The notes beneath the pieces are model-generated. The model was not told where the DNA came from. It made no database searches and saw only the letters and a program-made list of their open reading frames with translations. Position numbers and translations under genes: made by a program. From Candidatus Eiseniibacteriota bacterium (lineage in GTDB: Bacteria; Eisenbacteria; RBG-16-71-46; SZUA-252), in contig DASVDZ010000004.1 in assembly GCA_036380835.1 (NCBI GenBank), forward strand, positions 7,482-71,481: a stretch of 64,000 nucleotides of DNA, written 5' to 3'. Below, one piece after another: positions 24,010 through 59,249 of the stretch. Positions within the stretch are counted from its first letter, which is position 1, and each line of letters begins with the position of its first letter.

Positions 24010-24012
24010 GAG

Positions 24013-24726
24013 CTACCCGCGCCCCTCGGCGATCTCGCGCAGCCGGTCGAGGGACGGCACCAGGAAGCGGTCGCGTCCGGTGATCACGAGGCGTTCGCGT
24101 CCCCACCGGGAGAGGACCCGGATGGCGGTCTCGACCGTCGTTCCGACGAGGTCGGCGACCTCCTGGCGCGAAAGCTGGATCGGAATCTCGGTTCCGCCCT
24201 TCGCCTCGCGCCCCATGCGTTCGACGAGCGTGAGGAAGAGCTGGGCGATGCGCACGTCGACCTTCTGGCCCCGCATCTCCTGGAGCTTGCGGGTCAGCGA
24301 GACGGTGAGCTTGGTCAGCTCGCGGATGATCGCGCGGGCGAACTCGGGATTGCGGTCGAGCAGTTCGAAGTAGTCGCGCCGCGGAACCCAAAGGAGCGTG
24401 ACGGCCTCCAGGCAGATGGCGCTGGCCGGGTAGGGCATGTAGTTGTAGACGGCGATCGCGCCGACCGGCTCGCCTTCCTCGAACAGCTCGAGGATCACGT
24501 CCCCCGCGTCCCCGTGGGAGACGATCTTCACCCGCCCCTTGACGATCAGGGTGAGCGACTCGGCGGGGTCGCCGGCGCGCCAGAGGTAGTCGCCGCGCGC
24601 GTACTCGCGGATCGCCGCGAGCGCGGCGAGGCGCCGCTGGTCTTCCGGCGAGAGCCCTCGGAAGAGCGGGATCGCGCGCACCGCCCCGAGCACTCGATCG
24701 TCCCGAAGCTCCGCCGTCATGGGCAC
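24013..24726 (-). CDS. Crp/Fnr-family transcriptional regulator (cNMP-binding domain + C-terminal HTH); candidate NnrR/Dnr-like regulator of the adjacent nos cluster
   Basis: 237 aa. cNMP-binding beta-roll (YLWRAGDPAESLTLIVKGRVKIV ... GEPVGAIAV) and HTH (LSRQEVADLVGTTVETAIRVLSRW). No N-terminal Cys cluster, so not an FNR-type Fe-S sensor. Confidence 0.9.
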   Translation of the reverse strand: MPMTAELRDDRVLGAVRAIPLFRGLSPEDQRRLAALAAIREYARGDYLWRAGDPAESLTLIVKGRVKIVSHGDAGDVILELFEEGEPVGAIAVYNYMPYPASAICLEAVTLLWVPRRDYFELLDRNPEFARAIIRELTKLTVSLTRKLQEMRGQKVDVRIAQLFLTLVERMGREAKGGTEIPIQLSRQEVADLVGTTVETAIRVLSRWGRERLVITGRDRFLVPSLDRLREIAEGRG

Positions 24727-24743
24727 CGCCCCTCCGCGGCCGT

Positions 24744-24757
24744 ATGACGGCCGTCAT
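24744..24757. promoter_or_regulatory. Perfect 14-bp palindrome ATGACGGCCGTCAT (FNR/Dnr-type TGAC-N4-GTCA box)
   Basis: It is its own reverse complement. It lies 18-31 nt upstream of the crp/fnr ATG (24726), in the divergent intergenic region shared with the hemerythrin-cytc-nosZ operon. Confidence 0.6.
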
Positions 24758-24839
24758 GGTCCTTTGGTCTACCTCTCCCTATCTCCGTTCACTTCTATCA
24801 CTTTCAGCGGGATCGCGGCAGCCGAAATGTGATCGCGGC

Positions 24840-24853
24840 GTGACGCCGGTCAT
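24840..24853. promoter_or_regulatory. Second FNR/Dnr-type box GTGACGCCGGTCAT (TGAC-N4-GTCA half-sites)
   Basis: Palindromic half-sites TGAC/GTCA with a 4-nt spacer, about 84-97 nt upstream of the hemerythrin-like ATG (24937). This spacing suits a class-II activator site for the nos operon promoter. Confidence 0.55.
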
Positions 24854-24936
24854 GCCGCCGGGATCCGATTCCGCCGAAACTCCTTCGTGACGGCAATGCA
24901 GACGGGAGTTCATGAACCACACGGAGGACGAACGAG

Positions 24937-25467
24937 ATGGACGCCGACAGCCTGATCGAGAGGATCAAGAGCGATCACCGGCGCGTGCTTGCCGAGGTCT
25001 CGAGGCTGGAGTCGCTCCTCGCCCGCGGCGGGGCCACGCGCCCGGCGCCTCAGGCGAAGCTCGACGCGCTCGTCCGGATGCTCGAGCGCGAGTTCGGAAC
25101 CCACATGGCGGCCGAGGACGAGGCGCTCTACCCGGCGGTCGTCGCGGTGGTTCCCGCGGCCAAGGGAAGCGTCGAGCCGCTCCACGATGAGCACGCCGAG
25201 CTTCGCGCGATGCTCGAGCGGCTCCGCGAGACGATGGGCGAGCCGGGAGGCGCCGAGCGCGACGAACAGGTCACCGTCCAGGTGGCCGACCTGGCGGCGC
25301 TCCTCCGGATCCACATCCGAAAGGAGGAGTCGCTCGTCCTGAGCGTCGCGGCGCGGCTCCTCAGACCTCAAGACATCGACGCGATCGTGAAGCGAATGCA
25401 CCCGGAGCGCTCCGGCGAGGGCGCCCGGCCCACCACCACGGCACCCACGAAAGGGGACGCACGATGA
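24937..25467 (+). CDS. Hemerythrin-like (HHE cation-binding) domain protein, first gene of the nos operon
   Basis: 176 aa. Repeated His/Glu motifs characteristic of hemerythrin-like di-iron domains (SDHRRVLAEV, THMAAEDEALYP, LHDEHAEL, IHIRKEE). RBS GGAGGA before the ATG. The stop overlaps the cytochrome c ATG (ATGA). Confidence 0.75.
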   Translation: MDADSLIERIKSDHRRVLAEVSRLESLLARGGATRPAPQAKLDALVRMLEREFGTHMAAEDEALYPAVVAVVPAAKGSVEPLHDEHAELRAMLERLRETMGEPGGAERDEQVTVQVADLAALLRIHIRKEESLVLSVAARLLRPQDIDAIVKRMHPERSGEGARPTTTAPTKGDAR

Positions 25468-25937
25468 AGCGCATGTTGATCCGGGCCGCGATCCTGATCC
25501 TGGCGGCGGCGGCCTGGGGATGCGGAGGCGGCAAGTCGACGGACACGAAGGGGGCCGCCGGCGGCGCCGCCGTCTCTCCCTACGACAACGGGCCGCGCGC
25601 GGCCGATTCCCCGGTCGCGGTGGCGCTCGCCGAGAAGGGAGCGGGCCTTTTCAAGGCCAAGGGCTGCACCGCGTGCCACGCGTACGGCAAGCGCCTGACC
25701 GGTCCCGACCTGAAGGGCGTGACGCACCGGCGGACGGCCGACTGGATGGAACATCAGATCCTGCACCCGGAGATCATGACCAAGGAGGATCCCATCTCGC
25801 GTCAGCTCCTCGCCACGTACGCCGTGCAGATGTCGAACCAGGGACTCACGCCCGACGAGGCCAAGTCGGTCATCGAATACCTGAAGAAGCTGGACGAGGA
25901 GACGGACGAAAAGGAAGGGACGCAGGCCCAGAAGTGA
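25464..25937 (+). CDS. Monoheme c-type cytochrome, secreted (NosC-like candidate electron donor to NosZ)
   Basis: 157 aa, signal peptide, single CxxCH (KGCTACHAY). Lies immediately upstream of nosZ; a diverged paralog sits at 34028..34576. Confidence 0.85.
   Translation: MKRMLIRAAILILAAAAWGCGGGKSTDTKGAAGGAAVSPYDNGPRAADSPVAVALAEKGAGLFKAKGCTACHAYGKRLTGPDLKGVTHRRTADWMEHQILHPEIMTKEDPISRQLLATYAVQMSNQGLTPDEAKSVIEYLKKLDEETDEKEGTQAQK
25870..25898 (+). repeat. 29-nt exact repeat (copy 1) within the paralogous cytochrome c genes flanking the nos cluster
   Basis: gtcatcgaatacctgaagaagctggacga is identical at 25870..25898 and 34436..34464. The surrounding ~300 nt are diverged paralogous sequence (direct repeats about 8.5 kb apart). 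Confidence 0.8.
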
Positions 25938-25966
25938 GCCCCGCCCATACCAGAGGAGGAACAGTC

Positions 25967-27862
25967 ATGAAGCGTTGGATCGGTCTCAGCCTCGCGTTCG
26001 CGGTCGCGCTCGTCGCCGCGGCGCTCGTGGGAGGGTGCGGCGGCGGTCGCGGGTCGAACGCGGCGCTCAAGACGTACGTGAAGCCCGGAGAGCACGACAC
26101 GCACTACGCGTTCCTCTCCGGGGGCCACTCCGGGCAGGTGTTCGTGTACGGCCTTCCGTCCTGCCGCTACATCACCACGATCCCCGTGTTCACCCCGGAG
26201 CCCGCCAAGGGCTACGGCATCGACGAGGAGTCGAAGGCGATGCTCAAGGGCTTCACCTGGGGCGACGCGCACCACCCGGGCCTCTCCGAGACGAACGGCG
26301 ACTACGACGGACGCTGGCTCTTCATCAACGACATGCCGAACGCGCGAATCGCGCGGATCGACCTGAGCGACTTCACGACCCGCGAGATCTTCGGGCCGAT
26401 CCCGAACGTCTCCGCGGCGCACGCGTGCCCCTTCCCGACCCCGAACACCGAATACGTCTTCGCCGCGTCGCGATTCTCGATCCCTCTCCCCTTCCCCAGC
26501 GTGGCCAAGGTCGAGGACTACCAGACCAAGTTCAAGGGGATCGTGGCCGGCGTGAAGGTGAGCCCGGAAGGCCACATGTCGCTCGGATTCGAGATCCTGA
26601 CGCCGCCGTTCGACTGGGACCTCTCCGACGCCGGCAAGGGACCGAGCGAGGGGTGGCAATTCTTCACCTGCTACAACAGCGAAGAGGCCCACGACTCGCT
26701 GGAGATCAAGGCCTCCCAGAACGAGATGGACTACTTCCTCGCGGTGAACTGGCGTGAGGCGCAGAAGGCGAGCGACGCGGGCAAGGGTCACATGCTCGGG
26801 GGCGTGCCGGTCCTGACGCCGTCGGAGAACAAGGGAATCTGCTACCTGGTCCCGGTTCCGAAGAGCCCGCACGGCGTCGACGTCACGCCGAGCGGCGAGT
26901 TCATCTGCTGCTCCGGTAAGCTCCAGGCCGAAGTGACCGTCTACAACTTCAAGAAGATGATGGACGCCATCCAGGCCGGGAAGTTCGAGAAGGAGGTCGA
27001 GGGAATCCCGGTGATCGCCTTCCAGGACGTGATGGAGGCAAGGGTTCCGGTCGGTCTCGGCCCGCTCCACACGCAGTTCGACAACAAGGGCTACGCCTAC
27101 ACGTCCCTCTTCCTCGACTCGCAGATCGCGAAATGGAAGGTCGGTCCGCCGTGGAACGTGGTGGACAAGATCGACGTCTACTACTCGATCGGCCACCTCG
27201 CCGCTTCGGGGGGCGACACGCGCCACCCGACGGGCGAATACCTGCTCGCGCTCGACAAGCTCTCGAAGGACCGCTACCTGCCGGTCGGACCGTCCCACCC
27301 CGAGGCGACGCAGCTGATCGACATCCGGGGCTCGAAGATGGAGCTCCTCTACGACTTCCCGACGTATCCCGAGCCGCACTACGCGCAGATCATCGAGGCG
27401 AGCAAGCTCAAGCCGCTCAAGATCTACTCGCTCGCCGACAACAAGAACCCCGACGCGGTCAAGTCGGCCGACCAGACGCGCGTGGAGCGCCACGGCCGGC
27501 GGGTCGACGCCTACATGCTGACGATCCGCACGCACTTCACGCCCGACATCATCCGCGTGGCGCAGGGCGACACGATCTACTTCCACGTCACCAACCTGGA
27601 GCAGGACGAGGACATCACGCACGGCTTCGGGATCACCTTCTCGAGCAAGGACATGCAGGTCGAGCCCGGCGAGACGAAGACGATGCGGTGGGTGGCCGAG
27701 CGGGCCGGCATCCAGCCCTTCTACTGCTCCAATTTCTGCAGCGCGCTTCACCAGGAGATGCAGGGATACATCGAGGTGAATCCGCCGGGGACGAAGCTGG
27801 CCCAGGTGGCCCGGCCGAGTCCCGAGGAGATCGCGGAAGTCACCGCGCTCCTTCGGCGGTGA
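25967..27862 (+). CDS. nosZ: Nitrous-oxide reductase NosZ, clade II (Sec/lipoprotein-type signal)
   Basis: 631 aa. RBS GAGGAGGA. Signal MKRWIGLSLAFAVALVAAALVGGC without a twin-arginine motif. CuZ-site region (WGDAHHPGLSETNGDYDGRWLFINDMPNARIARIDL) and C-terminal CuA cupredoxin motif (HGFGI ... FYCSNFCSALHQEMQG). Confidence 0.97.
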   Translation: MKRWIGLSLAFAVALVAAALVGGCGGGRGSNAALKTYVKPGEHDTHYAFLSGGHSGQVFVYGLPSCRYITTIPVFTPEPAKGYGIDEESKAMLKGFTWGDAHHPGLSETNGDYDGRWLFINDMPNARIARIDLSDFTTREIFGPIPNVSAAHACPFPTPNTEYVFAASRFSIPLPFPSVAKVEDYQTKFKGIVAGVKVSPEGHMSLGFEILTPPFDWDLSDAGKGPSEGWQFFTCYNSEEAHDSLEIKASQNEMDYFLAVNWREAQKASDAGKGHMLGGVPVLTPSENKGICYLVPVPKSPHGVDVTPSGEFICCSGKLQAEVTVYNFKKMMDAIQAGKFEKEVEGIPVIAFQDVMEARVPVGLGPLHTQFDNKGYAYTSLFLDSQIAKWKVGPPWNVVDKIDVYYSIGHLAASGGDTRHPTGEYLLALDKLSKDRYLPVGPSHPEATQLIDIRGSKMELLYDFPTYPEPHYAQIIEASKLKPLKIYSLADNKNPDAVKSADQTRVERHGRRVDAYMLTIRTHFTPDIIRVAQGDTIYFHVTNLEQDEDITHGFGITFSSKDMQVEPGETKTMRWVAERAGIQPFYCSNFCSALHQEMQGYIEVNPPGTKLAQVARPSPEEIAEVTALLRR

Positions 27863-27874
27863 TCGCAGGGCGGC

Positions 27875-27898
27875 GGGGCCGGGCCCGTGTCCGGCCCC
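27875..27898 (+). terminator. GC-rich stem-loop immediately after nosZ (possible attenuator/partial terminator)
   Basis: GGGGCCGG-gcccgtgt-CCGGCCCC, 8-bp perfect stem, 12 nt after the nosZ stop, followed by a C/T-rich tract (ccgtcccttccccc). There is no classic U-tract. Confidence 0.35.
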
Positions 27899-27926
27899 CC
27901 GTCCCTTCCCCCACGGGAGGTTTGGA

Positions 27927-28544
27927 ATGGTCACGTACCTGAACGGCGCGTTCGCGACGAAAGAGCGGAGGCTCGTTCTCCTGGCCGCGCTGGTGCTGCT
28001 CCCGGTCTTCTTCCTCCCCGTGCTCCACGTCTGGGAGATGCGACTCTGGGCGCCGCAGTACCCCGAGGGCCTCCGGCTCACGATCTACTCGAACACCATC
28101 CGGGGCGACCTCGACAAGATCAACCTGCTGAACCACTACGTCGGGATGCATCCGATCACGCCGGCCGACTTCGCGGAGTTCCATTACCTGCCGCAGCTCC
28201 TGACCGGATTCGGCGTCCTGGCCCTCCTCGCGGCGCTCCTCAACCGGCGGTGGATCGCGGTCCTCGGGTGGCTCCTCTTCACCGGATTCGCGGTCTACAT
28301 GTTCCGGGACTACGCCCTGTGGCTCTGGCGCTACGGGCACGACCTCGATCCCCGCGCGGCGCTCAAGCTCCCCACCTTCTCGCCCCCCCTGATCGGGTTC
28401 GCGCGCATGGCGAACTTCCGGGTCCTGAGCCTCCCCGGTCCGGGCACGCTCCTCCTCGGCGTCGCCTGGCTCCTCGGTCCGATCGCGCTCTGGCTCGAAC
28501 GGCGCCACGGGAAGCGCGCTCCCGCGGCGGCCGACCGCCCTTGA
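27927..28544 (+). CDS. nosB: NosB-like integral membrane protein (clade-II nos cluster-specific)
   Basis: 205 aa, about 4-6 TM helices. Its position directly after nosZ and before nosD is diagnostic of clade-II clusters. Confidence 0.75.
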   Translation: MVTYLNGAFATKERRLVLLAALVLLPVFFLPVLHVWEMRLWAPQYPEGLRLTIYSNTIRGDLDKINLLNHYVGMHPITPADFAEFHYLPQLLTGFGVLALLAALLNRRWIAVLGWLLFTGFAVYMFRDYALWLWRYGHDLDPRAALKLPTFSPPLIGFARMANFRVLSLPGPGTLLLGVAWLLGPIALWLERRHGKRAPAAADRP

Positions 28545-29986
28545 TGATGTCCGAGCGGCGCGGCCGTCCGTTCCTGGCCGGGCTCCTCCTCGCCGCGGCG
28601 CTCGCCGCCGGCGGCGCCGGCTCGGCCAGCGCCGCGCGACGGGAGATCCCGGCTCGCGGAGACGCCGCCGAGACCGCGATCCTCGAAGCGGCCGACGGCG
28701 ACACCCTCCTGCTCGGCGCCGGCGTCCACCGCGGCCCGCTGATCCTCTCGCGCCGTCTCCTCCTCCGGGGAGCTCCGGGCGCGGTGCTCGACGGCGGCGG
28801 CGCCGGGACCGTGCTCACGGTGGCGGCCGCTGGCGCCGCGGTCGAATCGCTGACCATCCGGGGGAGCGGGAACGGCGCGCTGACGCTCGACGCGGGGGTC
28901 CACGTCGTCTCCGCCCGGGGCGTCCGGCTCCGCGGCCTTCGCGTGGTCGACGTCCTCTACGGGATCGCCGGGGAGCGCGCCGACTCGCTCGTGATCGAAG
29001 GCTGCGACCTGACCGGCCGCGTCCATCCCTCCGTCGACGTGACCCCCGAGATGAACGAAGCCGCGGGCAACGGCGTCCACCTCTGGTACTGTCGGGACGT
29101 CGCCGTCCGGCGCGTCGCGGAACGGCGCTTCATGGACGGAGTCTATCTCTCGTTCGTCGACCGGATCGTGGTCGAGGACGGACGCTTCTCGCGGAACGGC
29201 CGCTACGGGCTCCACACGATGTACTGTCAGGACAATCGCCTCGCCCGGAACCGCTTCCAGTTCAACCTCGCGGGCTGCGCGATCATGTTCTCGAACCATC
29301 TCGAGCTCTCCCGGAACGACTTCGTGCACAACCGCGGACCGCGCACGTACGGCGTCCTCCTCCGGGATTGCTCCGACGGCCACTTCCTCGAGAACCGCAT
29401 GGTCGACAACACCGTCGCCGTCTTCATGGACAACTCGAACCGGAACGTGATCCGGCGGAATCTCGTGCAGGACAACGGCTGGGGCGTGATCCTCTTCTCC
29501 TCCTGCGCCGGAAACGAATTCGCGGAGAACGACTTCGTCAACGACGACTACCCCGTGGCCCTCGACATGCGCTACTCGGACAACCGGTTCGACGACGGGC
29601 GTCGCGGCAACTACTGGAGCGGGAACGCCCCCTACGACCTGGACGGCGACGGCGCGAGCGACGTACCGTACTCGCCCGTGAGCGCCTTCGCGTTCCTCTC
29701 GAAGCGGTATCCCGACCTCGCGATCCTCGCCCAGAGCCCCGCCGCGAACGCCCTCACGATGGCGGAGCGGACCATCCCCGCGCTTCGGCCGAGCCAGATC
29801 GTCGACCGGTTCCCGCTCGTCGCGCCCGCCCCCGTCGGCGCGGGCGCCGGTGGCTCGCGAGGAACGCGCGCCGCCGGGGACGAGGCGCCGGGGGCTCGGC
29901 GCGGTTCGTTCCCCACCGCGGCCGCCTTCCTCCTCCTGGCCGCCGCGGGACTCAGGGGCGTCGCCTCGCGAGGGGGCCCGCGGTGA
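28544..29986 (+). CDS. nosD: NosD, periplasmic right-handed beta-helix (CASH-domain) copper-processing protein
   Basis: Start ATG 28544 overlaps the nosB stop (TGATG). Signal peptide, parallel beta-helix repeats (NRFQFNLAGCAIMFSNHLELSRNDFVHN ... NRNVIRRNLVQDNGWGVILFSS ... NEFAENDFVNDDYPVALD). The track ORF start at 27887 is rejected. Confidence 0.9.
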   Translation: MMSERRGRPFLAGLLLAAALAAGGAGSASAARREIPARGDAAETAILEAADGDTLLLGAGVHRGPLILSRRLLLRGAPGAVLDGGGAGTVLTVAAAGAAVESLTIRGSGNGALTLDAGVHVVSARGVRLRGLRVVDVLYGIAGERADSLVIEGCDLTGRVHPSVDVTPEMNEAAGNGVHLWYCRDVAVRRVAERRFMDGVYLSFVDRIVVEDGRFSRNGRYGLHTMYCQDNRLARNRFQFNLAGCAIMFSNHLELSRNDFVHNRGPRTYGVLLRDCSDGHFLENRMVDNTVAVFMDNSNRNVIRRNLVQDNGWGVILFSSCAGNEFAENDFVNDDYPVALDMRYSDNRFDDGRRGNYWSGNAPYDLDGDGASDVPYSPVSAFAFLSKRYPDLAILAQSPAANALTMAERTIPALRPSQIVDRFPLVAPAPVGAGAGGSRGTRAAGDEAPGARRGSFPTAAAFLLLAAAGLRGVASRGGPR

Positions 29987-30948
29987 TCCGGGTCGAAGGG
30001 CTCGTGAAGCGCTTCGGCGGGGTCACCGCCGTGGACGGACTCACCTTCGAGGTCGAGCGGGGCGAGACGTTCGCCGTGATCGGTCCGAACGGCGCCGGGA
30101 AGACGACCACGCTCAAGCTCATCCTCGGGCTCGCGCGCCCGGACGCGGGCTCGATCGCGATCGGCCCGCGCTCGCTTTCGCCCCTGGGTCCGGAGGCACG
30201 CCGCGATCTCGGCTACGTGCCGCAGAAGGTCGAGTTCCCGCCGGGGCGAACCGCGGCGCAGGTGCTCTCCTTCTTCGCCTCGCTCCGGGCCCTTTCCGAG
30301 CCGGCGGTCGAGCGCGCGCTCGGGCGGGTCGGCATGGCCGATCTGGCGAACCGCCGCGCGAGCGAGCTGTCGGGCGGATACGCGCAGCGGCTCTCCTTGG
30401 CCCAGGCGCTGCTCGCCGACCCGGCGCTCCTCGTGCTCGACGAGCCGACGGCGAGCCTCGACCCGGAAGCCACGTGGGAATTCAGGACCCTGGTCGAGCA
30501 GCTTCGCCGCGAGGGAAAGACGATCCTCCTCTGCTCGCACCTCCTGAGCGAGGTGGAGCGCGTGGCCGACCGGGTGCTCATCCTGAACGAGGGGCGGCGC
30601 GCGGCGCTCGAGTCGCTCTCCAGCCTGAGAGAGCGCCAGGCGTCGAGCACGCGGCTCGCGATCGAGACGCGGGGCGAGGCGGCGTCCGCGGCCGCGGCGC
30701 TCGCCCGCCGGGGCATCGCCTCGGCGCCGATCGACGCGACCCGCCTCACGGTGGACGGAAGCGACGGCCGCGGCGTCGCGGCGCTCGAGGCGCTCCGCGA
30801 GGACGCCGTGGCCGTCCGCTCGTTCGAGCTGGTCCGCCCGTCGCTCGAGGAGATCTTCCTCGCCGTGATCCGCCGCGAGCGCGGCGTCGCGGCGCGGGCG
30901 GCCGCGGGCTCTGCCCCGGACGCCGGGGGAAACGGCGATGGGCGCTGA
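29983..30948 (+). CDS. nosF: NosF, ABC transporter ATP-binding protein
   Basis: GTG start at 29983 overlapping the nosD stop (GTGA). Walker A GPNGAGKTT, signature LSGGYAQRLSLAQAL, Walker B LLVLDEPTASLD. Confidence 0.9.
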   Translation: MIRVEGLVKRFGGVTAVDGLTFEVERGETFAVIGPNGAGKTTTLKLILGLARPDAGSIAIGPRSLSPLGPEARRDLGYVPQKVEFPPGRTAAQVLSFFASLRALSEPAVERALGRVGMADLANRRASELSGGYAQRLSLAQALLADPALLVLDEPTASLDPEATWEFRTLVEQLRREGKTILLCSHLLSEVERVADRVLILNEGRRAALESLSSLRERQASSTRLAIETRGEAASAAAALARRGIASAPIDATRLTVDGSDGRGVAALEALREDAVAVRSFELVRPSLEEIFLAVIRRERGVAARAAAGSAPDAGGNGDGR

Positions 30949-31426
30949 CCGCCGCGGCCCGTCCGCGCTTCGGACCGCGGCCCGCGCCGCCGCCCGCGCC
31001 GCGGCGGTCCTCGTCCCGCTCGCGCTCGCGGGCTCGTTGCCCGGCTGTGTTCGCGCGCCGGAGAGCGGCGCGCCCCGCGTCGCCCTCGGAACGCCGTGCG
31101 CGACCTGCGGCATGGAGGTGCGCGACCTCCGATACGCCTGCGCCTCGCGCCGCGGCGGGACCGTGCGCGTCTACGATTCCATCGAGTGCGCCCTGAGGGG
31201 GGGCGCGGAATCGGCCGCCGCCGTCTACGTCGCCGATTTCGACACCGGAGGGCTCCACGCGGCCGACTCCCTCTGGGTCGTCCGCGCCGACCTTCCGACG
31301 CCGATGGGAGGCGGGTACGTCGCGTTCCTCGATCGCCGGCCCGCCGACCGCGTCGCCGCCGCCCGCGCCGGACGCGTCGGGCGGCTTCGCGACTTCCTCG
31401 CCGAAACGCCGGACGCGCGGCGATGA
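30938..31426 (+). CDS. nosL: NosL, copper-binding lipoprotein (Cu chaperone for NosZ maturation)
   Basis: 162 aa. Lipobox-like LAGSLPGC. NosL Cu-binding motif GTPCATCGMEV (CxxCGM) and the conserved PMGGGYVAF segment. Overlaps the nosF end by 11 nt. Confidence 0.8.
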   Translation: MGADRRGPSALRTAARAAARAAAVLVPLALAGSLPGCVRAPESGAPRVALGTPCATCGMEVRDLRYACASRRGGTVRVYDSIECALRGGAESAAAVYVADFDTGGLHAADSLWVVRADLPTPMGGGYVAFLDRRPADRVAAARAGRVGRLRDFLAETPDARR

Positions 31427-31839
31427 CGCGCTCCTACCGGATCCTCGCGCTCGCGCTCGTCCTCCTCGCCGCCTGGCTCGTCGTCGCGGTCCGAGCCCCT
31501 CGGCGTCCGGCCACGCCGCCGGAACGGGCCTCGGGCGCGCCGCGCGCCGCGACGATCGACCTCGTGGTCGGCGGCGGAGCGGTACGCCCCGAGAGGACGG
31601 CCGTCCCCAAGGGGGCGAACGTCTCCGTGACCGCCGTGAACCAGGACCGCGTGGCCCGCACGATCTCTCTCCTCGGCTACGAGGACCGGATCGCCACGAC
31701 CCGAATCGGCCCCGGCGACACGATCCGGCTCCGATTCGCCGCCGACCGGCCCGGCGAGGACTTCGCCTGGCTCGTCGACGGACGCCCCGCCGGCACGCTC
31801 GCCGTCACCGGCTCGCATCTCGTGGAGGGGCATCGGTGA
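31423..31839 (+). CDS. Small membrane-anchored/periplasmic protein with cupredoxin-like beta-sandwich character, between nosL and nosY (function unknown)
   Basis: 138 aa. ATG overlaps the nosL stop (ATGA) and the stop overlaps the nosY GTG (GTGA), so it is translationally coupled. N-terminal TM/signal ILALALVLLAAWLVVAV. No Cys and no obvious Cu-ligand set. The longer track ORF from 31096 is rejected. Confidence 0.6.
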   Translation: MTRSYRILALALVLLAAWLVVAVRAPRRPATPPERASGAPRAATIDLVVGGGAVRPERTAVPKGANVSVTAVNQDRVARTISLLGYEDRIATTRIGPGDTIRLRFAADRPGEDFAWLVDGRPAGTLAVTGSHLVEGHR

Positions 31840-32681
31840 GCGCGCCCTCGCAAGGACGTGGCCGCCGCGTCCTCGTCATCGCCCGCGAGGAGTACCGCCG
31901 CGCGCTCGAGACGCGGTGGCTCTTCGCCTTCACCGCGCTCTTCGCGCTCCTCGTGCTCGGCCTCTCCTATTTCGGCCTCGCCCAGAGCCAGGAGATCGGT
32001 TTCCAGGGATTCTCCCGCGTCACGCTGAGCCTCATGAACCTCGTCCTCTTCGTCGTGCCGCTGACCGGGCTCACGCTCGGCGTCGGGAGCATCGCGGGCG
32101 GCGCCGAGACGCTCCCGCTCCTCCTCGCGCAGCCGGTCTCGCGCGGAGAGGTGCTCGCCGGCAAGTACCTGGGCCTCGCCGCGGCCCTCACGGCGGCGCA
32201 GGCGCTCGGCTTCGGCGTCGGCGGCGTGGTCGTGGCGCTCCAGGCGGGGCCCGACCAGATCGAGGGATTCGTCACCCTGACGCTCCTGTCGTTCGTACTC
32301 GGCTGGCTCACGCTCTCCGCCGCCATCTGCATCGCCTCGCTCCTCGCCGACCGCGTGAAGGCGCTCTCGGCGGCGCTCCTCCTCTGGCTCCTCCTCGTCG
32401 TCGCGTACGACCTGGCGGTGCTCGGGGCGACGGCGCTCCTCCAGGGGGTGCCCCTCCAAGCCATCCTCTTCCCCGCGCTCCTCCTGAACCCGGTCGATCT
32501 CGCCCGCGTGATGATCACGCTCGCGGTCGGATCGGGAGCGCTCTTCGGCCCCACGTCGGCCGTCCTGGTCAAGCTCCTCGGCGGTCCCCTCGGGGTAGCG
32601 CTCGGGCTCGTGACGCTCGCGATCGAGACGGCGGCGCCGCTCGTGATCGCGGCGCGCGTCTTCCGGAAACGGGACTGGTGA
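31836..32681 (+). CDS. nosY: NosY, ABC-2 type permease
   Basis: 281 aa. GTG start overlapping the upstream stop. Six predicted TM helices typical of ABC-2 permeases partnered with NosF. Confidence 0.85.
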   Translation: MSAPSQGRGRRVLVIAREEYRRALETRWLFAFTALFALLVLGLSYFGLAQSQEIGFQGFSRVTLSLMNLVLFVVPLTGLTLGVGSIAGGAETLPLLLAQPVSRGEVLAGKYLGLAAALTAAQALGFGVGGVVVALQAGPDQIEGFVTLTLLSFVLGWLTLSAAICIASLLADRVKALSAALLLWLLLVVAYDLAVLGATALLQGVPLQAILFPALLLNPVDLARVMITLAVGSGALFGPTSAVLVKLLGGPLGVALGLVTLAIETAAPLVIAARVFRKRDW

Positions 32682-32685
32682 ACCC

Positions 32686-33942
32686 ATGGAGGTGAGGATC
32701 CCGCTCCAGGAGGGAGCGCGCCCGCCCGCGCCGCCGGCGGCGGGGGGCGAGGCCAAGCGAGCGCCCGGCAGTCCGGCCGAACCGCCCGACCCCTACCGCA
32801 TCCTCTTCCCGATGGGCGTGGCCTACGGGATCGCCGGCGCGGCGCTCTGGCCGCTTCACGCGCTGGGCCTCATCCCGTACCCCGCCCAGCTTCACTGGAC
32901 CCTGATGGCGCAGGGGTTCCAGCATTGCTTCATTCTCGGCTTCTTATTGACCGCCATGCCGTCGTTCATGCATGCCGAACACTGTCGCCGTTCGGAGCTC
33001 GTGATCGCGGTCGTCGCGATGGCGGGGTTCGGCGTCGCGGCCGTCCTAGGATGGGCGGCGGCGACCCAGGCGTGTTATCTGGCGACGCTCGCGCTGATCG
33101 TCGCGATGGCCTTCCGCCGGCGCCGGCAGGGGGCCGCCTCGCCGCCGGTCGAGTTCTCGCTCGTCGCGTTCGGGATCGCCCTCGGCGCCGTGGGATCGGC
33201 GATGATCGGAGGCGCCGCGCTCGGCCTCTTCGACGAGCCGGCGCCGCGCCTCGGGATCCGTCTCGTCTGGATGGGCATGATCCTCTCCGCGGTGCTCGGC
33301 GTCGGCGGCCTGCTCGTGCCGACGTTCAGCGCCATGCGCGAGCCGCTCGAGATCCCCGGCATCGCCCGGCCGCACGAGCGGCGGCCCCGGCGGATCCTCT
33401 ACGGCGTCGTGGCCCTCCTCCTCCTCTGCTCGCTGATTCTCGAGGGGGCGGGCCACGCCGCCCTCGGCGCCATCCTGAGGGCGGCCACCGCCAGCGGCGT
33501 GCTGCTCCTCGTCTGGAAGCTGTTCCGAAGGCCGGGGCGAGCCGACCTGCTCTCCTACGCGATCTGGGCCGCCGGGTGGTCGATCTTCGCCGGTCTCTGG
33601 CTGATGGCGTTCTTCCCGTCGCACCCCCTGCTCGGCGCGCACTTCGTCCTGATCGGGGGATTCGGGCTCCTCTCGGCGGGGATCGGAACGCGGGTCGTGG
33701 TGCGGCACGGCGGCCATCCGCTTCCCGAGGAGGGGCGCGTCCTGCGCCCGGCGGTGATCGCGCTCCTCGCGGCGACGCTCGCCGCGCGGGCGGCGGGCGA
33801 GCTGGCTCCTGGCCCTCGTCTCACGCTCCTCGCCGCGAGCGCGCTCGCGTGGATCGCCGCGTGGACCGTCTGGGCGGTCGGGGCGGCGCCGCGAATCCGG
33901 CGCCGCCGCGCGCCGCGCGCGGACGCGCCGCGGACCGCGTGA
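32686..33942 (+). CDS. nnrS: NnrS-family heme-copper membrane protein (NO-response)
   Basis: 418 aa, about 12 TM helices. The NnrS hallmark HWTLMAQGFQHCFILGFLLTAMPSFMHAEH (GFLLTA) plus conserved His positions. Starts 4 nt after nosY. Confidence 0.75.
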   Translation: MEVRIPLQEGARPPAPPAAGGEAKRAPGSPAEPPDPYRILFPMGVAYGIAGAALWPLHALGLIPYPAQLHWTLMAQGFQHCFILGFLLTAMPSFMHAEHCRRSELVIAVVAMAGFGVAAVLGWAAATQACYLATLALIVAMAFRRRRQGAASPPVEFSLVAFGIALGAVGSAMIGGAALGLFDEPAPRLGIRLVWMGMILSAVLGVGGLLVPTFSAMREPLEIPGIARPHERRPRRILYGVVALLLLCSLILEGAGHAALGAILRAATASGVLLLVWKLFRRPGRADLLSYAIWAAGWSIFAGLWLMAFFPSHPLLGAHFVLIGGFGLLSAGIGTRVVVRHGGHPLPEEGRVLRPAVIALLAATLAARAAGELAPGPRLTLLAASALAWIAAWTVWAVGAAPRIRRRRAPRADAPRTA

Positions 33943-33961
33943 CGCGAACGCCCCGATCCGG

Positions 33962-34020
33962 TATAATGAGCGTATCGTTGTAGGTTTCCGCGCATCTCAG
34001 AAGGGTTTCCCCACGGAAAC
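33962..34020 (+). promoter_or_regulatory. Promoter-like element (perfect TATAAT in GGTATAATG) plus 7-bp inverted repeat GTTTCCG...CGGAAAC in the 5' leader of the second cytochrome c gene
   Basis: TATAAT at 33962..33967 is conspicuous against the GC-rich background. Inverted repeat 33984..33990 / 34014..34020 separated by 23 nt, with the direct repeat GGTTTCC twice. It ends 8 nt before the ATG at 34028. Confidence 0.4.
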
Positions 34021-34027
34021 GAACCGC

Positions 34028-34576
34028 ATGGCGTCGAGACGTCGCTCGGCAATCCTGGTCGCGCTCGCGGCCGCCACCGCTGGCGGCTGCGGATGGTTCC
34101 AATCCCCGAAGACCACCGCCCCCACCCCGGAAGCCGTCGTTTCCGTCTATGACCGCGGCCCGCGGGCCGGCGAGGCGCCCTACATGCCGGTCTGGGCGAT
34201 CAGGGGGGAGTCTCTGTTCGTCCAGAAGGGCTGCAAGGCATGCCACGCCTATGGAGCCCGCCTCACCGGCCCCGACCTGAGGGGCGTCACCCGCCGGCGC
34301 TCCGCCGAGTGGATGGAGCAACAGATCCTCCACCCCGACGTCATGACCAAGGAAGATCCGATCTCGATGGCCCTGTTCGCCGAGTACGTCGCGCAGATGG
34401 CGAATCAAGGGCTCACGCCCGACGAGGCGAAGGACGTCATCGAATACCTGAAGAAGCTGGACGACGGGACGGAGGAGCGGGAAGGGCCGCAGGCCTTCCA
34501 GACCCAGAGCCCTCCGCCCTTCGCCGTTCCCGACTCGTCGGCTCCTCCCGCTACTTCCTCTCCACCGCCTTCTTGA
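34028..34576 (+). CDS. Monoheme c-type cytochrome, paralog of the 25464..25937 gene
   Basis: 182 aa, signal peptide, single CxxCH (KGCKACHAY). About 70% identical over the core to the nosZ-upstream cytochrome, including the identical 29-nt stretch at 34436..34464. Pro/Ser-rich C-terminal tail. Confidence 0.85.
   Translation: MASRRRSAILVALAAATAGGCGWFQSPKTTAPTPEAVVSVYDRGPRAGEAPYMPVWAIRGESLFVQKGCKACHAYGARLTGPDLRGVTRRRSAEWMEQQILHPDVMTKEDPISMALFAEYVAQMANQGLTPDEAKDVIEYLKKLDDGTEEREGPQAFQTQSPPPFAVPDSSAPPATSSPPPS
34436..34464 (+). repeat. 29-nt exact repeat (copy 2), see 25870..25898
   Basis: Identical to 25870..25898. Confidence 0.8.
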
Positions 34577-35072
34577 GCGCCGCCATGGTGGCGGCCATCT
34601 CCCCTTCCATCTTCCCTGCCGTCGCCTGCAGATCCTCCGCCTTGCTCTCGTCCGTGTACTGCTCCACGTACGTGACGTGCGTCATGGCGCCGCTCGGAGA
34701 GAGGAGGAGCTTCGCCTGGCACATGTAGGAGCCGTTCGTCGGCTCGTGCGCGACGCGAAGCTCCTTGCCGCGGTCGAGGTAGGTCACGATCGAGCGGCCC
34801 CCGTTCCCGAACTCGTCGGTGAAATCGAGCACGTCGCCCACCTTGGCGATCGTCACCTTGGCGTTCGACGCGTTCTTCCAGACCGGGCACCAGGTGACGA
34901 GGTTCTTGCCCGCGGTCAGATAGCTCCAGACGGCGACCGGTGGCGCGGCGATGTCCGCTTCCGACGTGAGGCGAACGACCGGGATCTGCTTCCACTCCGC
35001 GGACGCGGTCCCGGCGGACCCCGCGGCGAGGGTGAACGAGGCGAGCACGGCGAGGGCGAAACGGCGCTTCAT
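34551..35072 (-). CDS. Secreted SRPBCC-superfamily (AHSA1/START-like) protein
   Basis: 173 aa, signal peptide MKRRFALAVLASFTLAAGSAGTASA. Alpha/beta-grip-like pattern (WSYLTAGKNLVTWCPVW ... ). The 3' end overlaps the convergent cytochrome c gene by about 26 nt. Confidence 0.65.
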   Translation of the reverse strand: MKRRFALAVLASFTLAAGSAGTASAEWKQIPVVRLTSEADIAAPPVAVWSYLTAGKNLVTWCPVWKNASNAKVTIAKVGDVLDFTDEFGNGGRSIVTYLDRGKELRVAHEPTNGSYMCQAKLLLSPSGAMTHVTYVEQYTDESKAEDLQATAGKMEGEMAATMAALKKAVERK

Positions 35073-36485: not shown

Positions 36486-36487
36486 CG

Positions 36488-37078
36488 ATGCGCGGGCCGA
36501 TCGACTTCCTCTCACGCGCCGAGCCGAGGGCCGGCGATTCGACCGGCGCCGACGCGCTCTTCGCGCTCGCCGGCGCCCAGGAGCGGGAGGCGTTCACCGC
36601 GGACGCCTGGCGGCGCGGCACCGCGCGAACGCTCGTGCTGAGCGTCGGGCGGTTCGACTGGCGCCGCTACCGATCCCTCGGGCTGCCCGGGGGAGACGCC
36701 CTGCGCGCCGCCGTCGACGCGGTTCCCTACCGTCGCCGTCACTTCCTCGTGGTGGTCGAAGGGGCGGAAGCCGAGATCGTCTCGATCGGCCGGCGCCGGT
36801 TCGGCACACGCCACGAGCTGCGCTGCCTCGCGCGCCTGGCCGCGGAGCGCCGTTGGCGGGCGATCGTCGTCGCGACGTCGGCCTTTCATCTTCGCCGCAC
36901 GTCCCTCGCGGCGCGCCGGATCTTCCGGGGCTCCGGCGTGTCGATCGCCTACCTCGCGGTGCCGCGCGACCTCGACCGCTACGCGCCCGGAGTCTGGCGC
37001 CGGACGTTCCGCGGCGTGCGCGTGGTCGCGAGCGAGTTCGTCAAGCTGGCCGTCTACGCGCTCTTCCTCGGACGCTGA
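36488..37078 (+). CDS. DUF218 / YdcF-ElyC-SanA family protein
   Basis: 196 aa; ATG 3 nt after the MgtC-like stop. RTLVLSVGRFDWRRYRSLGLPGG ... AIVVATSAFHLRRTSLAARRIF resembles the YdcF-like Rossmann fold. Confidence 0.6.
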   Translation: MRGPIDFLSRAEPRAGDSTGADALFALAGAQEREAFTADAWRRGTARTLVLSVGRFDWRRYRSLGLPGGDALRAAVDAVPYRRRHFLVVVEGAEAEIVSIGRRRFGTRHELRCLARLAAERRWRAIVVATSAFHLRRTSLAARRIFRGSGVSIAYLAVPRDLDRYAPGVWRRTFRGVRVVASEFVKLAVYALFLGR

Positions 37079-58101: not shown

Positions 58102-58183
58102 TCGGCCATGAACGGCACTAGGGAAACCGGCGCGAACGCCCTCCGCGCGGCTTCCGGGCAACCATGGGAAAGAAGGTGACTGC

Positions 58184-59188: not shown

Positions 59189-59205
59189 TCTAGAACCCGA
59201 TCGAC

Positions 59206-59249
59206 GCGGCCGGCCCCACCTGGGGCCGGCCGCTCGATCCCTTTCTCCC
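59206..59249 (+). terminator. Strong GC hairpin plus pyrimidine tract between the two multiheme cytochrome genes (putative intrinsic terminator/attenuator)
   Basis: GCGGCCGGCCCC-acct-GGGGCCGGCCGC, perfect 12-bp stem at 59206..59233, followed by tcgatccctttctccc. Lies 18 nt after the hexaheme gene stop. Confidence 0.5.

What the first reader, a model, noticed from the sequence alone, without database searches (positions are those of the whole stretch)
24013..34576. Complete clade-II nos cluster with atypical gene order (nosZ-B-D-F-L-X-Y-nnrS), a leading hemerythrin-like gene and no nosR/nosG/nosH
NosZ has a Sec/lipoprotein-type signal (no twin-arginine) and is followed by nosB; both are hallmarks of clade II. 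Unusual points:
- the operon starts with a hemerythrin-like di-iron domain gene and a monoheme cytochrome c;
- nosL sits between nosF and nosY rather than after nosY;
- an extra small ORF (31423..31839) is inserted;
- the Rieske/cyt b pair NosGH that many clade-II clusters use for electron input is absent;
- nnrS is fused into the same tightly overlapping gene string (overlaps TGATG, GTGA, ATGA, GTGA).

The electron donor is therefore probably the upstream monoheme cytochrome, fed by bc1 or an alternative complex III.
Basis: partly seen in the sequence, partly recalled or inferred. Interest (0 to 1): 0.6.

Follow-up and report, generated by a model that had tools for sequence, protein, structure and literature searches.

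The report
Eisenbacteria N2O-reductase operon with NosL-partner cupredoxin
This is a real and complete nitrous-oxide-reductase gene cluster from an uncultured Candidatus Eisenbacteria bacterium; its "odd" layout is normal for that lineage, and the one new element is a small copper-protein-like gene that always travels with, or is fused to, the copper chaperone NosL.

Summary
Window 24013-34576 carries a divergent Crp/Fnr regulator, then hemerythrin, cytochrome c, nosZ, nosB, nosD, nosF, nosL, ORF X, nosY and nnrS, then a second cytochrome c. NosZ is Sec-type clade II (TIGR04246, 852 bits).

- **The layout is the lineage norm.** The whole arrangement recurs in Candidatus Eisenbacteria MAGs (NosZ 59-79% identical).
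- **Missing nosG/nosH is the norm.** In 62 of 63 related loci nosD and nosF are adjacent.
- **NosGH was mis-described.** They are not a Rieske/cytochrome b pair.
- **The first 714 bases are not operon.** They encode the regulator on the other strand. It comes with two conserved TGAC-N4-GTCA boxes about 97 bp apart.

The under-rated part is ORF X (31423-31839). It is a membrane-anchored cupredoxin fold with no Cys or Met copper site. It is present in all 13 Eisenbacteria sources that reach that slot, four of which lack nosL there. In two low-GC lineages it is fused to the C-terminus of NosL in the same nosF-[L-X]-nosY slot.

X therefore most likely works with NosL and NosDFY in copper delivery, not in electron transfer. 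That role is inferred, not shown. I rate this a new variant of a known system, of moderate interest.

The parts
24013..24726 (-). Crp/Fnr-family transcription regulator, divergent from the nos operon. It has a single Cys, so it is not an FNR-type Fe-S oxygen sensor.
   Evidence: Pfam cNMP_binding 65 bits and HTH_Crp_2 50 bits. It reaches no NCBIfam equivalog cutoff. Its only Cys is at position 105. A 62-77% identical orthologue in the same divergent position was detected in 14 of the Eisenbacteria loci.
24745..24756 (.). Palindromic box 1 (TGACGGCCGTCA), next to the regulator's start codon. Putative operator.
   Evidence: The window has 3 matches against 0.5 expected. In the 14 orthologous loci that have both flanking genes, the Crp-Hr intergenic region carries at least one such box with at most one mismatch. 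Eleven of them carry a pair 97-100 bp apart.
24841..24852 (.). Palindromic box 2 (TGACGCCGGTCA), centred about 90 nt upstream of the hemerythrin ATG. Putative activator site for the operon promoter.
   Evidence: In most related loci it is the only exact match in the whole locus.
24937..25467 (+). Cytoplasmic hemerythrin-like (HHE) di-iron protein of 176 aa. First gene of the operon.
   Evidence: PF01814, 76 bits. H14, H56, E60, H86, H126 and E130 are invariant in 15 orthologues. An ATGA overlap links it to the next gene. It falls below the RIC/YtfE cutoffs.
25464..25937 (+). Monohaem c-type cytochrome with a lipoprotein-type signal (CytC1, in the NosC-like position). Proposed direct electron donor to NosZ.
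   Evidence: PF00034, 46 bits. It carries a CTACH motif and an AWGC lipobox. Homologues lie within 700 nt upstream of nosZ in 55 of 80 loci.
25967..27862 (+). NosZ, clade II (Sec-dependent) nitrous-oxide reductase, 631 aa. It has a lipobox-like signal (LVGGC24), no twin-arginine motif and no C-terminal haem domain.
   Evidence: TIGR04246, 851.9 bits against a cutoff of 625. Seven CuZ His residues and the CuA motif THGF...CSNFCSALHQEM align with solved NosZ structures.
27927..28544 (+). NosB, the clade II-specific polytopic membrane protein, 205 aa.
   Evidence: It lies immediately downstream of nosZ. It is homologous to the gene in that position in nearly all 80 loci. It carries the motifs LNHYVGM (68) and YGHD (136), matching the NosB motifs quoted in PMC9697520.
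28544..29986 (+). NosD, periplasmic beta-helix maturation protein.
   Evidence: TIGR04247, 336.8 bits against a cutoff of 300; PF05048.
29983..30948 (+). NosF, ABC ATPase.
   Evidence: PF00005, 110.8 bits, plus its conserved position after nosD.
30938..31426 (+). NosL, lipoprotein Cu(I) chaperone. A divergent clade II-type copy.
   Evidence: PF05573 scores only 20 bits against a cutoff of 24. Orthologues in the same slot score 26.6-61 bits. Ligand motifs C54-x2-C57-x-M59, D80-x3-C84 and M123, and a lipobox LPGC, correspond to the SdNosL ligands described in PMC8457098.
31423..31839 (+). ORF X: an N-terminally membrane-anchored periplasmic cupredoxin-like protein of 138 aa. It has no Cys/Met copper site. 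It has an invariant His132 in a conserved C-terminal tail (GSHLVEGHR). Proposed partner of NosL and NosDFY.
   Evidence: Third-position GC about 0.9. PF13473, 27.9 bits. AF2 pLDDT 83.6. Cupredoxin fold hits. Present in 13 of 13 Eisenbacteria sources that reach the slot. Fused to NosL in other lineages, in the same slot.
31836..32681 (+). NosY, ABC-2 permease.
   Evidence: PF12679, 87.9 bits. A GTGA overlap links it to X.
32686..33942 (+). NnrS, a multi-pass membrane protein of a family associated by annotation and literature with the NO response. It starts 4 nt after nosY.
   Evidence: PF05940, 117.5 bits. It follows nosY in L003, L006, L019 and L030, and lies upstream of crp in L016.
33939..33967 (+). 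Sigma-70-like promoter match (GTGACG-17-TATAAT) in the nnrS-cytC2 spacer.
   Evidence: 10 of 12 positions match, and it is the only such site in 11.5 kb. A consensus match only.
34028..34576 (+). CytC2, a second lipoprotein-type monohaem cytochrome c and paralogue of CytC1. Possibly transcribed on its own.
   Evidence: PF00034, 45.7 bits. 62% identical to CytC1. In L004 and L013 a second paralogue lies upstream of crp instead.

Best explanation
The interval is the lineage-typical N2O-respiration regulon of a Candidatus Eisenbacteria bacterium.

**Regulation (inferred).** A divergently encoded Crp/Fnr-type regulator binds two conserved TGAC-N4-GTCA boxes. One lies at its own start and one about 90 nt upstream of the operon.

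**The operon.** hr-cytC-nosZ-nosB-nosD-nosF-nosL-X-nosY-nnrS.

**Enzyme and electron supply.** NosZ is a Sec-exported, probably lipid-anchored clade II enzyme (shown by sequence). Electrons most likely arrive through the lipoprotein monohaem cytochrome(s) c encoded next to it, with NosB, from a quinol:cytochrome c oxidoreductase encoded elsewhere (inferred). There is no NosGH or NosR module.

**Copper-centre maturation.** It uses NosDFY and NosL, plus ORF X. X is a membrane-tethered cupredoxin-fold protein that has lost every CuA or type-1 ligand but keeps one invariant His in a flexible acidic C-terminal tail. Three observations bear on its role:
- it is kept even where nosL is missing from the cluster;
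- it is translationally coupled to nosL and nosY;
- it occurs as a C-terminal domain of NosL in other lineages, in the same nosF-[L-X]-nosY slot.

From these I infer that X acts with NosL at the NosDFY complex. It would be either a relay or acceptor for Cu(I) through His132, or a docking adaptor. It is not an electron carrier.

**NO/O2 handling.** The hemerythrin and NnrS most likely buffer or sense NO or O2 (inferred from family knowledge only).
For: **Identity of the parts.**

**Source organism.** X is 100% identical to an NCBI protein of a Candidatus Eisenbacteria MAG on a 73.8-kb contig. The best NosZ relatives are Eisenbacteria MAGs at 59-79% identity.

**Conserved synteny.** It includes the regulator, hemerythrin and X.

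**Paired boxes.** They recur with 97-100 bp spacing in 11 of the 14 Eisenbacteria loci that have both flanking genes. They are usually the only match in the locus.

**X**
- Its HMM finds it in the window and 12 Eisenbacteria loci, which is every source that reaches the slot, and nowhere else among the 80 loci.
- L001, L012, L016 and L030 have nosF-X-nosY with no nosL between.
- About 250 database clusters match at E <= 1e-5. Those listed are mostly 131-141 aa, and the named ones are all Eisenbacteria.
- The AF2 model is a cupredoxin. Its best matches are FtrB and the CuA domains of ba3 oxidase and NosZ.
- hhalign against the NosZ CuA domain gives 85% probability.
- No Cys or Met is conserved.
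- NosL::X fusion proteins (P0191, P0215, P0232, P0244) are encoded between nosF and nosY in L083-L087.
- A published model says an exposed His on a partner mobilises Cu(I) from NosL (PMC8457098).
Against: - Nothing here shows metal binding, protein contacts or expression.
- The C-terminal tail of X is modelled with low confidence.
- Only His132 is invariant across standalone and fused forms. His137 is not. A single His cannot form a copper site on its own.
- X could instead serve the NosY permease, or NosZ docking.
- The regulator-box link rests on co-location and conservation only.
- The canonical FNR box TTGA-N6-TCAA is absent from the window.
- The quinol-oxidising complex that would feed the cytochromes is not in the window, so the electron path is incomplete.
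- The remaining roughly 10 kb of the contig and the rest of the genome could not be examined.
Confidence: 0.6

Rival explanations
1. X is a small blue-copper (type-1) electron carrier, like pseudoazurin or halocyanin, that feeds electrons to the CuA site of NosZ. On this reading it replaces the missing NosGH module.
For: X has a cupredoxin fold. It is membrane-tethered and periplasmic like the cytochromes. Distant relatives of the same size carry an intact H...C..H..M site, for example P0186 and P0188.
Against: X has no cysteine at all and no conserved methionine. The CuA His position aligns to a non-His residue. The conserved features lie outside the classical ligand loop. Fusion to the chaperone NosL points to metal trafficking rather than redox.
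Confidence: 0.07
2. X binds no metal. It is a structural adaptor: a degenerate copy of the CuA-type domain that docks to NosD, NosY or the cytochrome and positions apo-NosZ or NosL at the membrane complex.
For: X has weak but specific similarity to the NosZ CuA domain. It has lost all ligands. Its start and stop codons overlap those of nosL and nosY. A precedent exists for small lineage-specific, non-metal NosZ-binding proteins, NosP and NosQ (bioRxiv 10.64898/2025.12.16.694761).
Against: The invariant His followed by an acidic tail is the most conserved feature across very divergent members. That pattern suggests chemistry rather than only shape. The data do not exclude this rival.
Confidence: 0.25
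3. One reading: this is an individually atypical, rearranged clade II cluster whose unusual content signals an unusual electron-input solution.
For: The gene order differs from the Wolinella-type and Bacteroidota-type clusters. No nosG/H/R is present.
Against: The same order recurs in Eisenbacteria MAGs from many samples. nosGH is absent from all 80 nearest loci. A cytochrome c upstream of nosZ is the common state, seen in 55 of 80 loci.
Confidence: 0.05

Closest known systems
Clade II nos clusters of Bacteroidota, Gemmatimonadota and Ignavibacteriota (cytC-nosZ-nosB-(nosL)-nosD-nosF-nosY)
   Same: Sec or lipoprotein-type NosZ. nosB directly downstream. A monohaem cytochrome c upstream. nosD and nosF adjacent. 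No nosG/H/R (PMC9697520).
   Different: Here nosL sits between nosF and nosY rather than before nosD or fused to nosB. The operon also has an extra X gene, a leading hemerythrin, a trailing nnrS and a divergent Crp/Fnr gene with paired boxes. The tblastn comparison detected hemerythrin and X only in Eisenbacteria loci.
Wolinella succinogenes nos cluster (nosZ-B-D-G-C1-C2-H-F-Y-L; order from my own knowledge) with Nss regulators
   Same: Clade II NosZ, an essential NosB, NosDFYL, and Crp/Fnr-type regulators that control nos (PMC11539149; PMC9697520).
   Different: This cluster has no NosG/H/C1/C2 quinol-dehydrogenase module. NosZ has no C-terminal haem c domain, since no CxxCH motif is present. 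The regulator box is TGAC-N4-GTCA rather than TTGA-N6-TCAA.
NosL-NosDFY copper-delivery machinery (Shewanella denitrificans NosL; Pseudomonas stutzeri NosDFY)
   Same: The NosL ligand motifs are present and NosD, NosF and NosY are all present. The published trafficking model needs an exposed His on a partner (PMC8457098).
   Different: An additional cupredoxin-like partner is encoded between nosL and nosY, or fused to NosL. I found no such component described for the characterised clade I systems in the papers I could search.
NosP/NosQ small accessory proteins of acid-tolerant clade I reducers
   Same: They are lineage-restricted small proteins encoded next to nosL that act on NosZ maturation.
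   Different: NosPQ lack signal peptides, are reported only in clade I clusters and bind NosZ itself. The sections I read do not say they have a cupredoxin fold. X has an N-terminal membrane anchor, a cupredoxin fold and a genetic link to NosL.
Cupredoxin_1 / EfeO-type cupredoxin-like domains (FtrB, EfeO N-domain, B. anthracis 4HCF) and CuA domains
   Same: The fold is shared: Foldseek E 9e-7 to FtrB (8vuk), and 1e-5 to the CuA domains of ba3 oxidase and NosZ. Pfam PF13473 is just above its cutoff.
   Different: No sequence-level relative has a solved structure. X lacks the Cys/His/Met ligands. It has family-specific motifs GYE, ADRPGxxF and V-x-G-S/A-H followed by an acidic tail.

Membership tests
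Clade II (Sec-dependent) NosZ | Scores above the curated cutoff of the Sec-dependent NosZ model and below that of the TAT model | tested here: met
   TIGR04246 scores 851.9 bits against a cutoff of 625. TIGR04244 scores 446.2 against 625. L-NosZ (clade III) scores 154.9 against 700.
Clade II (Sec-dependent) NosZ | N-terminal signal without a twin-arginine motif | tested here: met
   The N-terminus reads MKRWIGLSLAFAVALVAAALVGGC. It has K-R only, followed by a lipobox-like VGGC. This is a motif reading; no signal-peptide predictor was run.
Clade II (Sec-dependent) NosZ | Seven CuZ histidines and the CuA ligands H, C, C, H, M | tested here: met
   DAHH100-103, AAH152, SPH302, PLH368, IGH410, EPH471, TH552 and C587-x3-C591-x3-H595-x2-M598 all align to the same residues of solved NosZ structures.
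Clade II (Sec-dependent) NosZ | N2O-reducing activity | not testable with these tools
   Requires expression or culture.
NosB | Polytopic membrane protein encoded directly downstream of clade II nosZ, with motifs LNHYxGM and YGH[ND] | tested here: met
   It lies 64 nt after nosZ. LNHYVGM is at residue 68 and YGHD at 136. At least 3 hydrophobic segments are predicted. The motifs are quoted in PMC9697520. It is homologous to the post-nosZ gene in nearly all 80 loci.
NosL | Match to PF05573 above the gathering score | tested here: inconclusive
   The window copy scores 20 bits against a cutoff of 24. Same-slot orthologues score 26.6, 27.7 and 61 bits, and Bacteroidota homologues 50-60 bits.
NosL | Lipoprotein carrying the Cu(I) ligands Cys-x-Met plus a distal Met | tested here: met
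   Lipobox LPGC37, C54ATC57GM59, D80SIEC84 and PM123GGG. Ligand roles are taken from PMC8457098. The correspondence is by motif, not by structural alignment.
NosDFY ABC complex | NosD model above cutoff, plus an adjacent ABC ATPase and an ABC-2 permease | tested here: met
   TIGR04247 scores 336.8 against 300. PF00005 scores 110.8 bits and PF12679 scores 87.9 bits.
NosGH (NapGH-like) electron-input module | Poly-[4Fe-4S] ferredoxin-type genes inside the cluster, typically between nosD and nosF | tested here: not met
   No Fer4 hit in the window. No ORF with two or more CxxCxxCxxxC motifs in the window. nosD and nosF overlap by 4 nt.
NosR / NosX (ApbE) of clade I | NosR-type membrane flavoprotein gene or ApbE-type gene in the cluster | tested here: not met
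   No such Pfam or NCBIfam hit among the 43 scanned ORFs of the window. ORF X is not the ApbE-type nosX.
Type-1 blue copper protein / CuA domain (for ORF X) | Cupredoxin fold | tested here: met
   AF2 pLDDT is 83.6, with a beta-sandwich at residues 42-129. Foldseek probability is 1.00 to cupredoxins.
Type-1 blue copper protein / CuA domain (for ORF X) | His-Cys-His-Met (type 1) or His-Cys-Cys-His-Met (CuA) ligand set | tested here: not met
   The protein has no Cys. No Met is conserved. The His ligand column aligns to a non-His residue.
Hemerythrin/HHE di-iron domain | PF01814 above cutoff with conserved His/Glu ligands | tested here: met
   It scores 76 bits against a cutoff of 25.3. H14, H56, E60, H86, H126 and E130 are invariant in 15 orthologues. 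The RIC/YtfE equivalogs are not reached: 31.5 against 204.7.
FNR-type oxygen-sensing Crp/Fnr regulator | N-terminal cysteine cluster for a [4Fe-4S] centre, and the TTGAT-N4-ATCAA box | tested here: not met
   There is a single Cys, at position 105. TTGA-N6-TCAA has 0 matches in the window. The protein belongs to the Crp/Fnr superfamily only.
NnrS | PF05940 above cutoff, multi-pass membrane protein | tested here: met
   It scores 117.5 bits against a cutoff of 28, covering 371 of 371 profile positions. Many hydrophobic segments are predicted.

The most novel reading that the evidence does not exclude
ORF X and the homologous C-terminal domain of some NosL proteins define an unrecognised component of N2O-reductase maturation. 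It would be a ligand-less, CuA-like cupredoxin module that takes Cu(I) from NosL through its invariant tail histidine and hands it to NosD or NosZ. On this reading it is required in a subset of clade II reducers, and can stand in for cluster-encoded NosL where nosL is absent.
Probability: 0.3. Interest if true: 0.65.

Novelty: new variant of a known kind. Interest (0 to 1): 0.45.

Why it matters
Clade II N2O reducers are the main biological sink for a potent greenhouse gas. How their enzyme gets its twelve copper ions and its electrons is much less well understood than for clade I.

This locus documents the nos regulon of an uncultured soil and groundwater phylum, Candidatus Eisenbacteria. It also points to a candidate new maturation factor whose link to the copper chaperone NosL is supported by gene fusion in independent lineages. 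If confirmed, it would add a step to the NosL-to-NosDFY-to-NosZ copper pathway. It might also help with heterologous production of clade II NosZ.

The conserved regulator boxes give a testable handle on how these organisms switch N2O reduction on.

Tried and rejected
- **NosB reference sequences.** I looked for them in the supplement of PMC11409646 to make a direct comparison. The FASTA part holding NosB could not be located, so I used the published NosB motifs and positional homology instead.
- **Canonical FNR/Crp box.** I searched the window for TTGA-N6-TCAA and found 0 matches. I replaced it with the palindrome actually present.
- **Extending beyond the window.** The protein at 62418-63023 is not on record. 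X is recorded only on a 2-kb Logan contig. No additional genome sequence could be examined for bc1, ACIII, nir or nor.
- **Sanford et al. 2012 (PMC3511753)** is not held.
- **Literature searches.** A search for hemerythrin with nosZ and 'nos gene cluster' found nothing. Searches on Eisenbacteria with nosZ and on cupredoxin with nosL/nosD/clade II turned up no description of these features in the papers I opened.
- **afdb50 fold library** was not available.
- **X as a type-1 copper electron carrier.** Considered and rejected: no Cys or Met ligands.
- **X as ApbE-type NosX.** Considered and rejected: unrelated family and size.
- **X as a spurious ORF.** Considered and rejected: codon bias, about 250 homologous clusters and a confident fold.
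- **P0240 as a NosF-NosL-X fusion.** Considered and rejected. This 586-aa hit is an evident mis-called read-through of wrong frames.

Full report
**1. What is in the sequence.**
The window is about 72% G+C, so raw ORF lists are mostly noise. Third-codon-position GC and frame plots single out one coding frame per stretch. Pfam and NCBIfam then name the products:
- a Crp/Fnr regulator on the minus strand (24013-24726);
- on the plus strand, a hemerythrin/HHE protein (24937-25467);
- a monohaem lipoprotein cytochrome c (25464-25937);
- NosZ (25967-27862);
- a 205-aa membrane protein (27927-28544);
- NosD (28544-29986);
- NosF (29983-30948);
- a NosL-like lipoprotein (30938-31426);
- a 138-aa ORF X (31423-31839);
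- NosY (31836-32681);
- NnrS (32686-33942);
- a second monohaem cytochrome c (34028-34576), 62% identical to the first.

There is also an ATGA overlap between hemerythrin and cytochrome c and an 11-nt overlap between nosF and nosL. nnrS follows nosY after a 4-nt gap rather than overlapping it. The nnrS-cytC2 spacer is 85 nt and holds the only sigma-70-like match of the region.

**2. Identity of the core genes.**
NosZ scores 851.9 bits on the Sec-dependent model TIGR04246 (cutoff 625). It scores only 446 on the TAT model and 155 on the clade III model. Its N-terminus has no twin arginine and ends in a lipobox-like VGGC. All seven CuZ histidines and the CuA motif align with solved NosZ structures.

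The gene after nosZ carries the two NosB signature motifs, LNHYVGM and YGHD, reported for NosB in PMC9697520. It is homologous to the gene in the same position in almost all 80 related loci.

The NosL candidate scores below the Pfam cutoff (20 against 24 bits). Its orthologues in the same slot pass the cutoff. It also has the lipobox and the C-x2-C-x-M, D-x3-C and PMGGG motifs. These correspond to the Cu and Zn ligands described for Shewanella NosL, including the Asp/Cys swap said to be typical of clade II (PMC8457098).

**3. Source and comparison.**
X is 100% identical to an NCBI protein of a Candidatus Eisenbacteria MAG on a 73.8-kb contig. A scan of one genome per species returned 80 nosZ loci:
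- The best NosZ relatives, at 70-79% identity, are nearly all labelled Eisenbacteria MAGs. A more distant Eiseniibacteriota MAG (L022) is 59% identical.
- A Spirochaetia MAG and a Dadabacteria MAG follow at 62-63%.
- Gemmatimonadota, Verrucomicrobiota and Bacteroidota lie at 48-56%.

A tblastn of the window's proteins against these loci shows that Crp(-)|Hr-CytC-NosZ-NosB-NosD-NosF-NosL-X-NosY is the standard Eisenbacteria arrangement. NnrS follows NosY in four further loci and sits upstream of Crp in one. NosL between NosF and NosY, without X, is also seen in the Spirochaetia and Dadabacteria MAGs. Bacteroidota-type clusters have Z-B-(L)-D-F-Y.

In 62 of 63 loci with both genes, nosD and nosF are adjacent. 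No ORF with two or more 4Fe-4S motifs lies inside any of the 80 clusters. So lack of nosG/C1/C2/H is the norm among the nearest relatives.

A cytochrome c homologous to CytC1/2 lies within 700 nt upstream of nosZ in 55 of 80 loci. Signals ending in a Cys are common among these NosZ proteins.

Calling NosGH a 'Rieske/cyt b pair' conflates two separate modules.

**4. The regulator and its boxes.**
The Crp-Hr intergenic region contains two palindromes, TGACGGCCGTCA (24745-24756) and TGACGCCGGTCA (24841-24852). The pattern TGAC-N4-GTCA has 3 matches in 64 kb against 0.5 expected. In the Eisenbacteria loci the exact pattern is usually found only in this intergenic region.

Allowing one mismatch, 11 of the 14 loci with both flanking genes show the same pair 97-100 bp apart, with the extended consensus (T)ATGAC-N4-(G/A)TCAT(A). 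The canonical TTGA-N6-TCAA box is absent.

The regulator has one cysteine only, so it is not an FNR-type Fe-S oxygen sensor. It reaches no NCBIfam equivalog cutoff.

I infer a dedicated regulator of the Crp/Fnr superfamily. This is comparable in role to the Nss regulators of Wolinella cited in PMC11539149. Its signal is unknown.

**5. ORF X.**
X has strong coding bias. It has about 100 homologous 90%-identity clusters, almost all 131-141 aa long, and about 250 with a broader profile. In a 1.84-billion-protein library it has about 70-80 full-length representatives, followed by a sharp drop to generic cupredoxins.

Its layout, by alignment and AF2 model:
- an N-terminal transmembrane helix;
- a Pro/Ala-rich linker;
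- a beta-sandwich;
- a nearly invariant C-terminus, GSHLVEGHR.

The AF2 model (pLDDT 83.6) matches cupredoxins:
- FtrB (8vuk, E 9e-7, target TM-score 0.80);
- CuA domains of ba3 oxidase and of NosZ;
- the B. anthracis Cupredoxin_1 protein;
- nitrosocyanin;
- EfeO.

After the true X proteins, the next hits of an X profile in the 80 loci are the NosZ ORFs themselves. hhalign against a NosZ CuA-domain alignment gives 85% probability.

X contains no cysteine and no conserved methionine, and the CuA His column is not His. It therefore cannot hold a type-1 or CuA centre. Distant same-sized relatives with an intact H..C..H..M site show what such a site looks like.

**6. The link between X and NosL.**
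Three observations tie X to copper delivery rather than to electron transfer.
- **Retention.** X is found in the window and 12 Eisenbacteria loci, which is every source that reaches that position. In L001, L012, L016 and L030 nosF is followed directly by X and nosY, with no nosL.
- **Coupling.** Its start and stop codons overlap nosL and nosY.
- **Fusion.** The profile search recovered 245-261-aa lipoproteins in which an N-terminal NosL domain is fused to a C-terminal X-like domain: P0191, P0215, P0232 and P0244, with partial copies P0221, P0235 and P0238.

The genomic context of the fusions was recoverable for two lineages, at 38-43% G+C. In both, the fusion gene sits exactly between nosF and nosY of a clade II nos cluster (L083-L087).

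An alignment of standalone and fused domains keeps P, G-Y, A-D-R/K-P-G-x-x-F and V-x-G-S/A-H, followed by an acidic tail. The single invariant potential ligand is His132 of the window protein.

The published NosL structure paper proposes that an exposed histidine of a partner protein mobilises Cu(I) from NosL (PMC8457098). X offers such a histidine on a flexible tail.

This is an inference. No binding, contact or expression data exist here. A purely structural adaptor role remains a serious rival. The NosP/NosQ precedent shows that small, lineage-specific, non-metal NosZ helpers exist.

**7. Hemerythrin, NnrS and electron supply.**
The hemerythrin has no signal peptide. It keeps H14, H56, E60, H86, H126 and E130 in 15 orthologues. 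It does not reach the RIC/YtfE models. NnrS is a full-length match.

By family knowledge both relate to NO or O2 stress. Their presence in one operon with nosZ, under a Crp/Fnr regulator, suggests a regulon that responds to or copes with NO or O2. That is not tested here.

No quinol-oxidising module (NosGH, NosR, Rieske/cytochrome b, ACIII) is present in the 64 kb. The cytochrome(s) c must therefore be reduced by a complex encoded elsewhere. In contrast, L083 does carry Rieske, cytochrome b and a multihaem cytochrome c directly upstream of nosZ.

**8. Verdict.**

The locus is a new variant of a known kind of system. It is a standard clade II nos core with lineage-specific additions. One of these, X, is a candidate new accessory factor with comparative-genomic support (retention, coupling and Rosetta-stone fusion). 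I found no description of it in the searchable literature. Interest is moderate at 0.45.

Noticed in passing
window 57142-63655 (+): A gene string for an NHL-repeat beta-propeller, two multihaem cytochromes c (Paired_CXXCH_1 / cytochrome c7-like), a 563-aa protein with no Pfam match, an LpoB-like lipoprotein and a 216-aa unknown protein. It looks like a periplasmic or extracellular multihaem electron-transfer module.
   Followed up: no
window 319-2895 (-) and 9399-13553 (-): Two very large secreted proteins that end in FlgD_ig-like domains. One has LVIVD repeats. The other has a Peptidase_C25 (gingipain-like) domain plus FG-GAP repeats.
   Followed up: no
window 34673-34684: The third and only other exact TGAC-N4-GTCA palindrome of the window. 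It lies 97 nt past cytC2, inside the convergent SRPBCC gene (34551-35072, minus strand). It may be chance, since 0.5 matches are expected per window.
   Followed up: partly
window 35235-36485 (+); L030 6822-8009: An MgtC/DUF4010 membrane protein lies downstream of the cluster. In L030 its orthologue (62% identical) follows nnrS directly. In the window, cytC2 and the SRPBCC gene therefore look inserted between nnrS and this gene.
   Followed up: no
L004 7420-7836; L013 7598-7924: In these Eisenbacteria loci the second cytochrome c paralogue lies upstream of the crp gene rather than downstream of nnrS. The paralogue is kept but its position varies.
   Followed up: no
L001, L012, L016, L030 (between nosF and nosY): Four Eisenbacteria nos clusters have no nosL in the cluster while keeping X. 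Whether nosL lies elsewhere in those genomes is unknown.
   Followed up: partly
L083 11595-13895; L086 4528-8225: The nos clusters that carry the NosL::X fusion continue downstream of nosY. L083 has two more NosL paralogues, one of them 257 aa with a weak X-like C-terminus, plus a thioredoxin-like protein. L086 has a YtkA-domain protein. Both have a TonB-dependent receptor. This suggests a linked copper-uptake module.
   Followed up: no
L083 12377-12739; L086 4528-4929: A conserved small (120-133 aa) Cys-rich protein with CxCGC...KCxC motifs and a shared C-terminal motif (V/I)EHPPR lies downstream of nosY in both fusion-bearing lineages: directly after nosY in L086, after the second NosL in L083. 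It has no Pfam match and could bind metal.
   Followed up: no
window 24001-28000: G+C dips to 0.66-0.69 across hemerythrin, cytC and nosZ, against about 0.72 for the window. This was not analysed further. The cluster is conserved across the phylum, so recent transfer is not indicated.
   Followed up: no
window 36470-37078 (+): A roughly 200-aa ORF with strong coding bias and no Pfam match.
   Followed up: no
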